Positions 10,912 through 15,097 of a stretch of DNA of 17,628 bases are shown in pieces. Under the pieces are notes generated by a model. That model searched no databases. It was not told the origin of the DNA and saw nothing but the letters and a program-made list of their open reading frames with translations. Positions within the stretch are counted from its first letter, which is position 1. Every line of letters starts with the position of its first letter. The stretch is from IMG/VR virus record IMGVR_UViG_3300010413_000009, positions 1-17,628 of that record; one strand, 5' to 3'. Position numbers and translations under genes: made by a program. The stretch is from a virus.

Positions 10912-11294
10912 TCCTTCCTTTGTTTCAAGGCGCTCGCAATCTGGCCAAAGAATTGTCGCTTCGCGCTCAGCGCAAGCCGCTGTGCTTGCGCAGCACTAAC
11001 GCACTCTACGGATTCGGCCTGCCCCACAATTTGTCCCCTGCCGGACGCTGGCCAATAGTCGGCTAGGTGTTTGTTGCCGTACTTGAACTGCCAGTGCTTA
11101 CCCTCGTCAGTCAGTTCGATAGTGATCTGCTCGAATGCCAGCTCATTGCGGAGTGTCTCCAGCTCCGTCTGTGCCAGCCTCAGCCGATCCTGTCTCACTT
11201 GTCGCTTCCCGCGCACTGGATACTCGATCAATGATGTCTGACGTATGGGTGTCGAATTCAGCGGCCGTTGCCAGTACTTTACCGCCCGTACCAA
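10908..11294 (-). CDS. Hypothetical protein; the start is uncertain (the track start is a TTG, and there is no in-frame ATG)
   Basis: The ORF overlaps the 3' end of the HldE gene by about 150 nt in another frame. The real start is probably a non-ATG codon further downstream. Its stop is coupled (ATGA) to the next gene, which supports it being real. Confidence 0.35.
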   Translation of the reverse strand: MVRAVKYWQRPLNSTPIRQTSLIEYPVRGKRQVRQDRLRLAQTELETLRNELAFEQITIELTDEGKHWQFKYGNKHLADYWPASGRGQIVGQAESVECVSAAQAQRLALSAKRQFFGQIASALKQRKE

Positions 11295-12648
11295 GTACGT
11301 ATTCGGCGCCTGGTATTTGCTGTTCCTTGCCAGCCCATTCTGGACCTTTTATTAGGATATCCGGGGACAATCGCTTGATCAGTTCCTCGGGTGTGTCAGT
11401 ATCGAAGCGGACGATGGCATCTACCGCGGGCAGCGCAGATAGTGCTGCAGCACGTTCATGAAATGTCCGCAATGGCTTCCGTTTGACACGAGTAGCGGAT
11501 TCGTCGGAGTTAACGAGTACGGCCAAGAAATCGCAATGCTCCGCGGCTTGCGTAAGCATGGAAATATGACCAGGATGTATCATGTCGAACACACCATTGG
11601 TCACGCCGAATTTCGCTTCAGCGACGCCGGCCGATAGCCGCAGCAAGCTCAAATGTGGCACATTGGTCAGTTTGGTTGCTGTACCATAGACAGCACAGGT
11701 GCGCCTGTGGATCTGGTAAAGTGGGACAGGAACCGCACCACCGCGCTCGACAGATAATGCGCCGGCTGTAATGGCAAAACGCAGTGCAGTTGGCATGGGC
11801 ATGCCCGCGCCGGCGCTAAACGTAAAAGCCGCCGCCACGGTGTCCCCAGCGCCACACGTATCGACAACTATGGCCGGCAGGGCCGGAAGATTCTGCGCCT
11901 TCTCACCGCCCTTAGACCATACCATGCCGTCGCCGCCACACGTCACTATGCAATGCTCGGCGCCAAGCGACTTGCATATCTCACGCGCTGCGCGTTCTAC
12001 ATTATCGTATCCTGTGGCTGCTAGTGCCTCTTGCGCACTCGGTGTTATGATGTACGCACCCTTGTAGTATGGCATGTGCGCAACCGACGGATCAACCACC
12101 ACTTTGATTTTGTTCTCGTGAGCAAATTTCAGCACTACTTCGATTGTGCGCTCGGTGCAGATCCCCTTATCATAGTCTGACAGCAGAATTGCCAACGGCT
12201 TGACCTCGTCCACGCAACGATTGAACATGTCGACGACCTTGTCCTCGACCTTAGCCTTTGGTTTGCTGTCGAAATCGAACCGCGCTACCAGACGACCGCC
12301 TGCAAATATGCGATTCTTCTGTGGTGTTTGATAGTGCGGATCCGTGATGACATAGTCTTGATTGACCATCTCCGTGGGCGCGATTTTCCTAAACGCCTGC
12401 CCGCCACTGTCAATGCCAACCACGGAGACAAATGCTACTGGCATAGCCATATGCGCCAAATTCTCAGCTGCATTGGCTCCGCCGCCCTTGTTGAAGTAGA
12501 TATGCGCGCGGTCGCCTTGTACGACGTCCACGATTGGCACTGCAGCGGTCTGGTCGAGTCGTGTGACAGTGCCGAGGAAGTAATTATCGATGATGACCGG
12601 GCCGACAACGACTACACGTTCGTTGCTAGCCCCCAGCGGTGACGGCAT
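11143..12648 (-). CDS. hldE: Bifunctional D-glycero-beta-D-manno-heptose-7-phosphate kinase / D-glycero-beta-D-manno-heptose-1-phosphate adenylyltransferase (HldE/RfaE). This is the ADP-heptose biosynthesis enzyme
   Basis: 501 aa, ATG start. N-terminal ribokinase/pfkB-family domain: VVVVGPVIIDNY, GGGANAAENLA, and the catalytic VDTCGAGDTVAAAF (GAGD). C-terminal cytidylyltransferase-like domain: TNGVFDMIHPGHISML (HxGH), LAVLVNSDESATRVKRKPLR, and ILIKGPEW. I aligned these from memory to E. coli HldE. There is an extra ~25-aa Ser/Thr/Gly/acidic C-terminal tail. Confidence 0.85.
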   Translation of the reverse strand: MPSPLGASNERVVVVGPVIIDNYFLGTVTRLDQTAAVPIVDVVQGDRAHIYFNKGGGANAAENLAHMAMPVAFVSVVGIDSGGQAFRKIAPTEMVNQDYVITDPHYQTPQKNRIFAGGRLVARFDFDSKPKAKVEDKVVDMFNRCVDEVKPLAILLSDYDKGICTERTIEVVLKFAHENKIKVVVDPSVAHMPYYKGAYIITPSAQEALAATGYDNVERAAREICKSLGAEHCIVTCGGDGMVWSKGGEKAQNLPALPAIVVDTCGAGDTVAAAFTFSAGAGMPMPTALRFAITAGALSVERGGAVPVPLYQIHRRTCAVYGTATKLTNVPHLSLLRLSAGVAEAKFGVTNGVFDMIHPGHISMLTQAAEHCDFLAVLVNSDESATRVKRKPLRTFHERAAALSALPAVDAIVRFDTDTPEELIKRLSPDILIKGPEWAGKEQQIPGAEYVLGTGGKVLATAAEFDTHTSDIIDRVSSAREATSETGSAEAGTDGAGDTPQ

Positions 12649-13279
12649 TTTCTGCGGGTGTCCTGATTCTGGCGGTTAGGCGAATGACTCTGTAGGTTCC
12701 GTCTGGATGCGGAAACACGAAATCCTTTTGCAAGTCGCGTGTTGGGTCCAATGACGGGTTTGATACCGTCGGATGCACTCCCTCCGGAAGGATAAGAAAA
12801 GCGTCCACGAATGGACCACCGTCTTCCGATGCTGCGTTCACGATCGCAATGGCACCTGTAGATCCGTCGGAAAACACGGTATACCAGCCGGCAACGATTT
12901 CGCCGTTGTCGCATTCAAATGGGAGAGCTTTCTCGAGATGTTCCTTGTACAGCGCCATCTCTGCTTGTGGAACCACAAGCCGCGCTGTGTTGTAGCCTAC
13001 CCTTTCGAAAACTGGACCGTCCGACGGAAGCTGCACGAGCCGCGCAAGGGCTCGTCTGGCCAAATTGCGATCGAAGAACGCGTTGATAGCCGCAACAGAA
13101 TTGTGATCAGCTGTCATGCTTTTGGGCGTGCCTGCTGACTCTTCCTTGAGCATTGCAGTCTTACCGAGTTCCTCCTCGACCACGTCGAGCCAGGCGTGAA
13201 ATGCTGAGACCTGCGGTTGCAGATCGCCGACTCCATTCAGTCCGCTGTAGATGAGATGTAGTTGCTCCTCATCAGTCAT
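12626..13279 (-). CDS. Hypothetical protein (218 aa from the first ATG; the ORF is open upstream to a TTG at 13444)
   Basis: ATG at 13279..13277 (MTDEEQLHLIYSG...) lies 36 nt after the stop of the upstream gene. Starting at the TTG at 13444 would require a 130-nt overlap. The stop TAG overlaps the HldE start region by 23 nt. No recognisable motifs. Confidence 0.55.
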   Translation of the reverse strand: MTDEEQLHLIYSGLNGVGDLQPQVSAFHAWLDVVEEELGKTAMLKEESAGTPKSMTADHNSVAAINAFFDRNLARRALARLVQLPSDGPVFERVGYNTARLVVPQAEMALYKEHLEKALPFECDNGEIVAGWYTVFSDGSTGAIAIVNAASEDGGPFVDAFLILPEGVHPTVSNPSLDPTRDLQKDFVFPHPDGTYRVIRLTARIRTPAENAVTAGG

Positions 13280-13314
13280 TTTGTACTTCGTCGCTAGCTC
13301 GGAGAGCCGCACGA

Positions 13315-14145: not shown

Positions 14146-14158
14146 GAAGGAAAAGTGT

Positions 14159-14181
14159 GGGCGCCTCTTCCTGAGGCGCCC
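14159..14181 (-). terminator. GC-rich hairpin with a U-rich tail (weak intrinsic terminator or attenuator) between genes 14201..15097 and 13315..14145
   Basis: Minus-strand RNA reads GGGCGCCUC-AGGAA-GAGGCGCCC (perfect 9-bp stem), followed by ACACUUUUCCUUC and then the AUG at 14145. Confidence 0.4.
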
Positions 14182-14200
14182 ATGAAGACAACCAGGATCG

Positions 14201-15097
14201 TCAGCGAACGAGCACGGCCTCCGCGCACTGATTCGCCATTTCGAGATTGGTCACCGCGCCGCGGATCTGGGTCTGTGCCCGCTGCAGGAACTCGATCTGG
14301 AGTCCGATACGCACATCCGAATTGAGCAGCATCTGGGTGGTCCCAGCATGCATCATCTCCTCCGTGACAGCTAGCGACGACTCGTCGGCTTCCACCGGCA
14401 TGCGCGGTTGTGCAGCCTCGGCTACCGTCACTAGCGCGGACGCGGCATCCGTCAACTCCGCGGAAGTTCGGATCTTATGCAGCACCTCGTAGGCGCGCTG
14501 GATAGCCAGAGGACTAGCAGTATCGTCCGTAACCGCACAGGCGTTGGCCTCTGCCAGGCACGCATCGATGTTGATGAGGTGCCCGGCGGCCTTCTCGCGC
14601 TCGACGATCATGATGAACGCATCCTCGTACGTCACCGGCAGTGCGTTAGCAACGTGCTTCGCGCGCTGCGCCACGGCCCGCTCCTTCGCGGATCGCGCCG
14701 CAAGCGTGCGGCCGTTATGCTTCGCCTTGGAATCGTACACGATGAAGATGCGATTGTCATGATCGTGCTCATCCCTGAACAGCGCAACAGCCGCATCATT
14801 GCCATTCCTCTTGAACTCGGCGATGACCTGGTTTCGGCACTGAATCGCGGCAGCGTGGGCGATAGGTTTGCCCACGTACCTCTTCTTCAACTTCCTGAAG
14901 GTGTGGCGCACGCCGTCGAGACTGCTGGCACCTGGATGCTCGCGATAGAACGCGCGGAGCTCGTTCCGATGCTTCGACCGGCCGGGATAAGTCAAAGGAT
15001 CCCATCCGGACTTGCCCTTCTTCTTGCGCTTCGTGCTGTGCGACGGTGACGACGGACGGTCGTTCCGGAACCGGCGTCTTGCAGTGGCAGATCTCAT
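14201..15097 (-). CDS. Hypothetical basic protein (298 aa), candidate DNA-binding protein
   Basis: ATG with consensus SD AGGAGG (6-nt spacer). The N-terminus is strongly basic and NLS-like: RRRFRNDRPSSPSHSTKRKKKGKSGW. The rest is Ala-rich and helical. Confidence 0.65.
   Translation of the reverse strand: MRSATARRRFRNDRPSSPSHSTKRKKKGKSGWDPLTYPGRSKHRNELRAFYREHPGASSLDGVRHTFRKLKKRYVGKPIAHAAAIQCRNQVIAEFKRNGNDAAVALFRDEHDHDNRIFIVYDSKAKHNGRTLAARSAKERAVAQRAKHVANALPVTYEDAFIMIVEREKAAGHLINIDACLAEANACAVTDDTASPLAIQRAYEVLHKIRTSAELTDAASALVTVAEAAQPRMPVEADESSLAVTEEMMHAGTTQMLLNSDVRIGLQIEFLQRAQTQIRGAVTNLEMANQCAEAVLVR

What the first reader, a model, noticed from the sequence alone, without database searches (positions are those of the whole stretch)
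11143..15097. Complete bifunctional HldE (ADP-heptose synthesis) embedded in a phage-like replication module, next to uncharacterised proteins: a candidate nucleotide-sugar modification module
The 501-aa protein carries both HldE catalytic domains with intact signatures. The ribokinase-like kinase domain has GGGANAAENLA and the GAGD active-site box. The adenylyltransferase domain has the HxGH motif in GVFDMIHPGH. It sits between recombination and replication genes on one side and three unknown proteins on the other: a 218-aa protein, a 6-Cys zinc-ribbon protein, and a basic NLS-like protein. All are co-oriented and overlapping.

ADP-heptose is normally an LPS inner-core precursor. It is also a potent innate-immune agonist. 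A mobile element carrying its own HldE suggests it diverts heptose-7-P into ADP-heptose for its own purpose. Possibilities are heptosylation of DNA bases, of virion proteins, or of host surface structures (lysogenic-conversion style).

No GmhA, GmhB, HldD or recognisable GT9 heptosyltransferase is present, so a transferase may be hidden among the adjacent hypotheticals.
Basis: partly seen in the sequence, partly recalled or inferred. Interest (0 to 1): 0.75.

Follow-up and report, generated by a model that had tools for sequence, protein, structure and literature searches.

The report
Phage-specific HldE-like sugar-activating enzyme
A lineage of large uncultured phages carries, inside its DNA replication and repair gene block, its own divergent copy of the bacterial enzyme that makes ADP-heptose. 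What the activated sugar is attached to is still unknown, and the neighbouring unknown proteins do not look like sugar transferases.

Summary
ORF 11143..12648 (-) encodes a complete 501-aa two-domain protein: a pfkB kinase plus an HxGH nucleotidyltransferase. Its best matches are the HldE/RfaE-specific models and the solved HldA and HldC structures. It scores only about half the NCBIfam HldE cut-off (268 vs 521 bits) and is about 31% identical to bacterial HldE.

It belongs to a well-supported clade found only on metagenomic and IMG/VR viral contigs of 54-226 kb. No close relative turned up in 185,579 species genomes or in deposited phage genomes.

The gene sits at a fixed place in a collinear module: nucleotide metabolism, then replication, then Mre11/Rad50-like recombination genes. 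A 276-aa Cys-rich protein precedes HldE in 13 lineages. The 217-aa protein does so in most. The 298-aa basic protein is lineage-specific.

The "hidden transferase" idea is not supported:
- The 217-aa protein folds confidently but matches no solved fold.
- The 276-aa protein belongs to a large family (544 clusters) that shares only a zinc-ribbon motif with Rep_1/IS91 and has no conserved acidic or His catalytic residues.
- One related phage keeps the 276-aa gene without HldE.

No glycosyltransferase or base-hydroxymethylating enzyme was recognised in about 27 kb of the source contig.

Most likely this is a phage-adapted ADP-heptose-type synthase feeding an unidentified phage glycosylation, possibly of DNA. 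I rate it moderately interesting.

The parts
11143..12648 (-). HldE-like bifunctional protein, 501 aa, complete ORF
   Evidence: Best hits are HldE models and the HldA (4e84, 2e-27) and HldC (5x9q, 2e-19) structures. The score is below the NCBIfam equivalog cut-off.
11710..12627 (-). pfkB/ribokinase-type kinase domain (aa 8-313). It carries the GG switch (aa 55-56), N204/E207 and the GAGD catalytic box (aa 266-269, nt 11842..11853). The lid motif is RLDQTAAVP where bacteria have RISPEAPVP.
   Evidence: TIGR02198 match at aa 8-313. Invariant residues. Comparison with 75 bacterial HldE sequences.
11218..11619 (-). HxGH nucleotidyltransferase (adenylyltransferase-like) domain, aa 344-477. H358-P-G-H361 lies at nt 11566..11577. 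The loop is two residues shorter where bacteria have KGxxRP.
   Evidence: TIGR02199 match at aa 344-477. Pfam CTP_transf_like. Loop alignment.
12626..13279 (-). 217-aa conserved unknown protein. The N-terminus is helical. The C-terminal domain (aa ~60-205) is beta-rich with no solved-fold match. The ORF overlaps the HldE start by 23 nt.
13315..14145 (-). 276-aa Cys-rich protein. The Cys cluster is at aa 73-97 (nt 13855..13929). C75, C89, C94, C97 and G268 are invariant family-wide; R100 and Y239 are conserved in at least 90% of members. It precedes HldE in every lineage examined except L064.
   Evidence: Alignments. 544 representative clusters. Weak Rep_1/Zn_Tnp_IS91 hits limited to the zinc motif. 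The AF2 model failed at pLDDT 36.6.
14158..14182 (-). Terminator-like hairpin (10-bp stem, 8 GC pairs, T-rich tail) just upstream of the 276-aa gene. It separates that gene from the 298-aa ORF.
14201..15097 (-). 298-aa basic, lineage-specific protein. Probably not part of the conserved unit.
   Evidence: No family hits. No similarity to the positional equivalents in relatives.
10908..11198 (-). 96-aa conserved small protein immediately downstream. It overlaps the HldE 3' end by 56 nt.
   Evidence: Gene call on the source contig. Proteins of similar size (69-115 aa) occupy the same position in five related loci (cluster c11); homology of the window's copy to them was not shown.
6616..10460 (-). 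Mre11-like phosphoesterase (9324..10460), a 214-aa unknown protein (8729..9373) and a Rad50/SMC-like ATPase (6616..8754). This is the collinear recombination block downstream of HldE.
   Evidence: Pfam. Clusters c2/c3 are present in all or nearly all loci.

Best explanation
The 501-aa protein is a functional, virus-adapted homologue of bacterial HldE.

Proposed mechanism. Its N-terminal ribokinase-fold domain phosphorylates C1 of a heptose-7-phosphate-type sugar phosphate drawn from the host pool (sedoheptulose-7-P via host GmhA). Its C-terminal HxGH domain then transfers AMP from ATP to the sugar-1-phosphate, giving ADP-heptose or a close ADP-sugar analogue.

Genomic setting. The gene is a long-standing, fixed-position gene of an uncultured lineage of large phages (contigs up to 226 kb). 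It is co-transcribed with their nucleotide-metabolism, replication and Mre11/Rad50-type recombination genes, so it is made while phage DNA is synthesised.

Inferred use. I infer that the activated sugar feeds a phage-specific glycosylation. The most likely target is phage DNA, by analogy with known phage pathways that pair a sugar kinase and a nucleotidyltransferase with a DNA glycosyltransferase. The transferase and the acceptor have not been identified and are not evident among the adjacent genes.

What is shown: the domain identity, the intact catalytic motifs, viral exclusivity and conserved position.
What is inferred: the exact sugar (about 60% heptose, 40% altered), the DNA target (about 35-40%) and the dependence on host GmhA/GmhB.
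For: Enzyme identity:
- HldE-specific models are by far the best hits, and the solved HldA/HldC chains are the best PDB matches.
- 54 of the 71 positions that are >=90% conserved in 75 bacterial HldE sequences are kept. These include the ribokinase-family sugar and catalytic positions D21, G55-G56, N59, D158, N204/E207 and GAGD D269, plus HxGH.

Viral lineage:
- The clade is monophyletic in 200/200 NJ resamplings.
- It occurs only on viral or metagenomic contigs.

Position and context:
- The position is identical in 12 loci spanning very divergent phages, in which the neighbouring 276-aa protein is only 22-34% identical.
- Distant relatives at the same position keep the canonical SPEAPVP and KGxxRP HldE motifs.
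- Surrounding genes are a dNMP-kinase-like protein, an NT5C deoxyribonucleotidase, NDK, NAD-ligase, an exonuclease and helicases.

Published precedents:
- A phage gene cluster with a kinase, a cytidylyltransferase and a GT-B enzyme makes heptosyl-5hmC DNA (10.1101/2023.12.21.572611).
- Phage UDP-arabinose pathways follow the isomerase, kinase, phosphatase, nucleotidyltransferase logic of the heptose pathway (PMC13326640).
Against: - Scores are about half the NCBIfam HldE cut-offs.
- The window clade has fixed changes in the kinase lid (S32D, E34T) and a shortened loop in the transferase domain, so the substrate may differ.
- No glycosyltransferase, ThyA-like hydroxymethylase, methyltransferase/TET pair, GmhA or GmhB was recognised in about 27 kb of the source contig or in +/-10 kb of the relatives.
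- Many ORFs there remain unannotated, and the rest of these 150-226 kb genomes was not examined.
- The host is unknown, so the availability of heptose-7-P is assumed.
Confidence: 0.45

Rival explanations
1. Auxiliary metabolic gene. The phage HldE simply boosts or restores the host's ADP-heptose supply for LPS core, capsule, S-layer or glycoprotein synthesis during infection. This could serve superinfection exclusion or envelope integrity. There would be no phage-specific acceptor.
For: RfaE/HldE-like genes annotated as such occur in cyanophages and other phages, and PHROG 7878 exists. No phage transferase was found near the gene.
Against: AMGs are usually sporadic, sit in variable islands with other envelope genes, and stay close to host homologues. 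This gene differs on each count. It keeps a fixed position in the replication module across very divergent phages. It is only about 31% identical to any cellular HldE. It forms a virus-only clade. No other envelope-sugar genes accompany it.
Confidence: 0.18
2. Retargeted enzyme. The scaffold is HldE-derived, but in the window clade the substrate has changed. It might be another sugar phosphate, or an NDP other than ADP. The product would then be a different activated metabolite, used for glycosylation, cofactor or nucleotide salvage, or interference with host defence signalling.
For: Several changes are fixed in the clade: bacterial E34 (99% conserved) becomes T, S32 becomes D, and the KGxxRP loop is two residues shorter. 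There are also 20 clade-specific invariant positions. The score is far below the equivalog cut-offs.
Against: Most family-defining positions are retained (54/71). Syntenic homologues in related phages keep the canonical HldE motifs, so the ancestral function at this locus was probably HldE-like. No positive evidence points to any particular alternative substrate.
Confidence: 0.2
3. Three-gene module. The 276-aa Zn/Cys protein and the 217-aa novel-fold protein work with HldE. One would act as a transferase of unprecedented fold, or as the acceptor, attaching the ADP-activated sugar to DNA or to a replication protein.
For: The 276-aa gene lies within 1-2 kb upstream of HldE in 13 lineages, including ones where it is only 22-34% identical. 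The 217-aa gene lies between them in most. A hairpin separates the trio from the upstream gene. The 217-aa/HldE ORFs overlap, which suggests translational coupling. The 217-aa family has invariant polar residues: R71, Y133, D159, S176, D193 and T195.
Against: The whole module is collinear, so the gene order is not specific evidence. L064 keeps the 276-aa gene and Mre11 but lacks HldE. L079 lacks the 217-aa gene. The 276-aa family has no invariant Asp, Glu or His, and resembles only the Rep_1/IS91 zinc motif. The 217-aa fold matches no transferase. The two families show no mutual homology.
Confidence: 0.12

Closest known systems
Bacterial HldE (RfaE), NCBIfam NF008454 / TIGR02198 + TIGR02199
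   Same: Same two-domain order and length (about 480-500 aa). Same GG, NxxE, GAGD and HxGH motifs. 54 of 71 highly conserved positions are retained. It is the best-scoring family.
   Different: About 31% identity. 267.6 bits against a cut-off of 521. Lid motif DQTAAVP instead of SPEAPVP. Loop two residues shorter in domain II. Virus-only clade. Located in a replication module instead of an LPS or housekeeping context.
Burkholderia HldA (PDB 4e84) and HldC (PDB 5x9q), the split heptose kinase and adenylyltransferase
   Same: These are the best solved-structure matches for the two halves: 2e-27 over aa 8-308 and 2e-19 over aa 345-477.
   Different: Separate polypeptides in Burkholderia, fused here. 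Sequence similarity is modest.
Phage DNA-glycosylation sugar-activation cassettes. Examples are metagenomic 'contig 53' (HAD/APH bifunctional enzyme + cytidylyltransferase + GT-B, giving heptosyl-5hmC) and the Ara-5hoC pathway with the bifunctional nucleotidyltransferase/kinase AfhE-type enzyme.
   Same: A phage-encoded kinase plus nucleotidyltransferase makes an NDP-sugar during DNA synthesis. Heptose on phage DNA is documented.
   Different: The kinases there have the APH fold, not pfkB. A recognisable DNA glycosyltransferase and a base-hydroxylating or hydroxymethylating enzyme sit in the same cluster. None was found here.
Cyanophage and other phage 'rfaE'-annotated genes (PHROG 7878, S-CAM1, S-SSM7, P-TIM68)
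   Same: Phage-borne homologues of HldE domains.
   Different: Mostly single-domain matches (19-59% query coverage) next to carbamoyltransferase or epimerase-type sugar genes. They are unrelated to the 276-aa and 217-aa neighbours.
Rep_1 (PF01446) and IS91 zinc-binding domain (PF14319), compared with the 276-aa neighbour only
   Same: A shared C...C..CP(F/W)C.AR(R/K) zinc-ribbon-like motif. 8 and 4 of 71 family members give weak hits.
   Different: The hits cover only profile positions 5-82 of 253 and fall below the gathering scores. No conserved HUH histidines are present.

Membership tests
HldE (NCBIfam NF008454 equivalog) | Fused N-terminal heptose-7-P kinase domain and C-terminal heptose-1-P adenylyltransferase domain, matched end to end | tested here: met
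   Model positions 10-473 of 475 are matched by aa 9-478. The Pfam domains are in the right order.
HldE (NCBIfam NF008454 equivalog) | Score at or above the curated cut-off (521 bits; domain models 345 and 181.5) | tested here: not met
   267.6, 214.7 and 126.5 bits. Syntenic homologues in related phages also score 262-325.
HldE (NCBIfam NF008454 equivalog) | Conservation of positions that are near-invariant in bacterial HldE | tested here: inconclusive
   54 of 71 are kept. Consistent replacements are E34T and S32D, plus a loop deletion at the bacterial KG position.
HldE (NCBIfam NF008454 equivalog) | Catalyses heptose-7-P 1-phosphorylation and ADP-heptose formation | not testable with these tools
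   Needs an enzyme assay or complementation of an hldE mutant.
pfkB / ribokinase superfamily | Pfam PF00294 above the gathering score, with the GG switch, NxxE and GAGD catalytic Asp | tested here: met
   114.8 bits vs 25.8. G55 G56, N204/E207 and G266-A-G-D269 are conserved.
Cytidylyltransferase-like (HxGH) nucleotidyltransferases | Pfam PF01467 above the gathering score, with an intact HxGH motif | tested here: met
   60.3 bits vs 21. H358, G360 and H361 are invariant in the clade.
Glycosyltransferase (GT-A, GT-B, GT9) among the adjacent unknown proteins | Profile hit to a GT family, or a GT-A/GT-B fold in a confident model | tested here: not met
HUH rolling-circle Rep (Rep_1, PF01446), for the 276-aa protein | HUH metal-binding motif and catalytic Tyr motif, with a full-length profile match above the gathering score | tested here: not met
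   Only the N-terminal zinc-motif region matches (profile positions 5-82, at most 20.6 bits vs 33.2). There is no conserved His pair. Y239 is conserved in at least 90% of members, but its context is unlike Rep motif III.
Phage DNA hypermodification gene cluster | Co-located base-modifying enzyme (ThyA-like hydroxymethylase/hydroxylase or MT+TET) and a DNA glycosyltransferase | tested here: not met
   None was recognised in the window, in about 27 kb of the source contig, or in +/-10 kb of six relatives. The rest of the genomes was not examined.

The most novel reading that the evidence does not exclude
The Cys-rich 276-aa protein, the novel-fold 217-aa protein and the divergent HldE form a phage-specific system. 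It would attach an ADP-activated heptose-like sugar to replicating phage DNA, or to a replication/recombination protein, through a transferase with no resemblance to known glycosyltransferase folds. This would be a new route to DNA or protein glycosylation that is core to a whole lineage of large phages.
Probability: 0.1. Interest if true: 0.85.

Novelty: new variant of a known kind. Interest (0 to 1): 0.45.

Why it matters
Phage-encoded nucleotide-sugar synthesis is known mainly in two forms. One is sporadic envelope-related auxiliary genes. The other is compact DNA-glycosylation cassettes with an obvious glycosyltransferase. This case fits neither.

Here an HldE-type enzyme is a stable, fixed-position gene of the replication module in an uncultured lineage of 150-226 kb phages. 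It has diverged far from all cellular homologues, and no recognisable transferase is nearby.

If the product decorates DNA, it would extend heptose-type DNA hypermodification to a new viral lineage. It would also point to an unrecognised transferase. If it does not, it shows that large phages need ADP-heptose-like metabolites for something not yet described.

Two sizeable protein families, one with 544 clusters and one with at least 18, are also flagged as conserved phage replication-module proteins of unknown fold or function.

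Tried and rejected
Searches that found nothing:
- DNA megablast of the whole window against deposited phages: no match.
- tblastn of the DnaB-like and 276-aa proteins against phages: no match. Rad50-like gave only marginal N-terminal hits. No cultured relative could be named.
- Genome-contig scans with the 276-aa and HldE alignments found no clade member in cellular genomes, so no host could be assigned.
- The metagenome scan returned only the same clade.
- Rfam and tRNA scans of the window were empty.

Structure and profile attempts:
- AF2 on the 276-aa protein with a 5-sequence alignment failed at pLDDT 36.6.
- The afdb50 fold library was unavailable.
- PDB profile searches of the 276-aa, 217-aa and upstream 369-aa families gave nothing significant.
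- hhalign of the 217-aa family against the 276-aa family showed no homology. That rejects the idea, raised by a BFVD hit to a 276-aa 'Cysteine-rich protein', that the two are paralogues.

Other dead ends:
- Walking along the 153-kb IMG/VR contig by exact-pattern search returns only about 4.5-kb loci, so it was abandoned.
- No open paper with HldA substrate-contact residues was found, so heptose-contact residues could not be mapped individually.
- A crude NJ tree did not recover all phage HldEs as one group (5/200). A single acquisition versus in-situ replacement therefore stays unresolved.

Ideas rejected:
- The ordinary LPS-locus explanation and the generic kinase plus cytidylyltransferase explanation.
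- The innate-immune agonist idea, as irrelevant to an environmental phage.

Full report
**Observation.** All long ORFs of the window lie on the minus strand. ORF 11143..12648 encodes 501 aa. The identical protein was called on two independent assemblies: a 39.3-kb Logan contig that overlaps most of the window, and a 3.7-kb contig from another run.

Pfam finds PfkB (6.6e-33, aa 50-306) and CTP_transf_like (3e-16, aa 349-438). In NCBIfam the three best models are the HldE-specific ones:
- NF008454, 267.6 bits, matched end to end
- rfaE_dom_I, 214.7 bits
- rfaE_dom_II, 126.5 bits

These are far ahead of ribokinase (93.9) and other cytidylyltransferases (<50). All three still fall below the curated cut-offs of 521, 345 and 181.5. 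The best solved structures are the Burkholderia heptose-7-P kinase HldA (4e84, 2e-27) and the adenylyltransferase HldC (5x9q, 2e-19). The quoted motifs (GGGANAAEN, GAGD, HPGH) are present.

**A virus-only clade.** In the 5.8-billion-protein search the protein heads a group of 17 unnamed metagenomic proteins at 37-100% identity. There is then a gap, from 325 to 232 bits, before bacterial HldE at about 32% identity.

Members lie on IMG/VR viral contigs of 54-226 kb. Scans of 185,579 species genomes with the clade's own signature peptides found only remote kinases at 24-28% identity. Deposited phage genomes contain no close relative of this protein or of its helicase or 276-aa neighbours. A crude NJ analysis recovers the clade in 200/200 resamplings.

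**How HldE-like is it?** I compared it with 75 full-length bacterial HldE sequences. Of the 71 positions that are >=90% conserved there, 54 are retained in the clade. The retained set includes the ribokinase-family sugar and catalytic positions and HxGH.

Three changes are consistent across the clade:
- The lid motif RISPEAPVP becomes RLDQTAPVP (S32D and E34T; bacteria have E at 99%).
- The domain-II loop is two residues shorter where bacteria have KGxxRP.
- 20 positions are invariant in the clade but differ from the bacterial consensus.

The catalytic machinery is therefore intact. The substrate could be the same or slightly altered.

**Context and synteny.** The source contig and six relatives, fetched with 10-kb flanks, share one collinear block:

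NAD-ligase … dNMP-kinase-like, NT5C deoxyribonucleotidase, phrog_284 exonuclease, two unknowns (213 and 369 aa), NDK … 276-aa Cys protein, 217-aa protein, (small ORF), HldE, small ORFs, Mre11-like, Rad50/SMC-like, 343-aa protein, SF2 helicase, DnaB/AAA_25-like helicase.

A profile search for the 276-aa protein in IMG/VR recovered five much more distant large-phage contigs (155-210 kb), in which that protein is only 22-34% identical. In all five an HldE homologue again lies 1-2 kb downstream, followed by the Mre11-like gene. Those distant HldEs keep the canonical SPEAPVP and KGxxRP motifs and score 262-318 bits on NF008454. The ancestral function at this locus was therefore very probably genuine HldE chemistry.

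Two exceptions are informative:
- L064 keeps the 276-aa family gene and the Mre11-like gene in order, but carries a 435-aa PHROG-7247 protein instead of HldE.
- L079 has the 276-aa gene abutting HldE with no 217-aa gene.

Other viral HldE-like genes, from cyanophages, a giant-virus MAG and others, lack both neighbours.

**The adjacent unknown proteins.**

*276-aa protein (13315..14145).* The five-sequence model failed at pLDDT 36.6. An exhaustive profile search shows a large family: 544 representative clusters at E<=1e-3. Only C75, C89, C94, C97 and G268 are invariant; R100, Y239 and a few Pro/Leu are near-invariant (>=90%). No Asp, Glu or His is conserved. Eight of 71 members hit Pfam Rep_1 weakly and four hit Zn_Tnp_IS91. 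These hits cover only the zinc-motif region and fall below the gathering scores. I read it as a zinc-ribbon protein, probably DNA-binding, of unknown function. Nothing marks it as a transferase. It shows no homology to the 217-aa family.

*298-aa protein (14201..15097).* It is basic at the N-terminus and has no detectable similarity even to the proteins at the same position in close relatives. A strong hairpin terminator-like site (14158..14182) separates it from the 276-aa gene.

**Interpretation.** Several things argue against a generic auxiliary LPS gene: the fixed position, deep conservation, viral exclusivity, strong divergence from cellular homologues, and a neighbourhood of nucleotide and DNA metabolism genes. 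Together they favour a phage-specific use of an ADP-activated sugar during DNA synthesis.

The literature supplies two direct precedents:
- A metagenomic phage cluster with a HAD/APH bifunctional enzyme, a cytidylyltransferase and a GT-B enzyme installs mono- and di-heptose on 5hmC (10.1101/2023.12.21.572611).
- Ara-5hoC phages encode an isomerase, kinase, phosphatase, nucleotidyltransferase route that mirrors the heptose pathway (PMC13326640).

Those clusters carry recognisable glycosyltransferases and base-hydroxylating enzymes. None was recognised here in about 27 kb of the source contig or in the relatives' flanks. The rest of these 150-226 kb genomes could not be examined with the tools available. 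The DNA-glycosylation reading is therefore the leading hypothesis but remains unproven. The idea that the three upstream proteins hide the transferase is not supported. Because the entire module is collinear, gene order by itself is weak evidence of functional coupling.

**Verdict.** The finding is a real, intact, divergent, virus-specific HldE homologue that is conserved in the replication module of an uncultured large-phage lineage. It is a new variant of a known kind, namely phage-encoded nucleotide-sugar synthesis. I rate it moderately interesting (0.45). The upside depends on finding the acceptor and the transferase.

Noticed in passing
window 14158..14182 (-): A strong terminator-like hairpin (10-bp stem, 8 GC pairs, T-rich tail) lies 13 nt upstream of the 276-aa gene's start codon. 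It may end the upstream transcript or act as an attenuator for the 276-aa/217-aa/HldE unit.
   Followed up: partly
window 16100..16750: An ORF-poor, lower-GC (about 0.51) stretch. It holds two near-perfect hairpins (16382-16412 and 16420-16448), a terminator-like site at 16346-16361 and a 29-aa hydrophobic mini-ORF (about 16647..16736, minus strand). It looks like a boundary between transcription units.
   Followed up: partly
window 5588..6619 (-): A 343-aa protein directly after the Rad50-like gene is conserved in five related loci. It has a weak NCBIfam hit to the TIGR-Tas RNA-guided endonuclease (21.7 bits, cut-off 100). It may be a nuclease partner of the Mre11/Rad50 pair.
   Followed up: no
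L004 11722-11898, L006/L007 11713-11889, L009 11707-11880 (opposite strand): Related phages carry a 57-58-aa CsrA homologue on the opposite strand just downstream of HldE. The window has no such gene at that position.
   Followed up: no
L064 3545-9191: A distant collinear phage keeps the 276-aa family gene and the Mre11-like gene. In place of HldE it has a 435-aa protein of PHROG 7247 (unknown function). This is a natural 'swap' that could indicate an alternative function at this slot.
   Followed up: partly
L079 188-2688: On this 4.1-kb metagenomic contig the 276-aa family gene directly abuts the HldE homologue, with no 217-aa gene between them.
   Followed up: partly
L001 169-1873 and L083 4337-4831 (outside the window, upstream): The source phage encodes an NT5C-type deoxyribonucleotidase, a second metallophosphoesterase exonuclease (phrog_284, 1.4e-33), a weak dNMP-kinase-like protein and NDK. 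This nucleotide-metabolism set is often seen in phages that handle non-canonical nucleotides.
   Followed up: partly
window 1..937 versus L003: The window extends about 680 nt beyond the end of the 39.3-kb Logan contig that otherwise matches it. The database also records a 101-kb JGI contig for the same HldE protein that the look-up did not return. The window therefore probably comes from that longer assembly.
   Followed up: no
276-aa family (P0122, P0144-P0292): The Cys-rich protein belongs to a family of 544 representative clusters that is not in Pfam or PHROGs. Only four Cys and one Gly are invariant; one Arg and one Tyr are conserved in at least 90% of members. It is a large uncharacterised phage protein family that would be worth a proper structure prediction.
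   Followed up: partly
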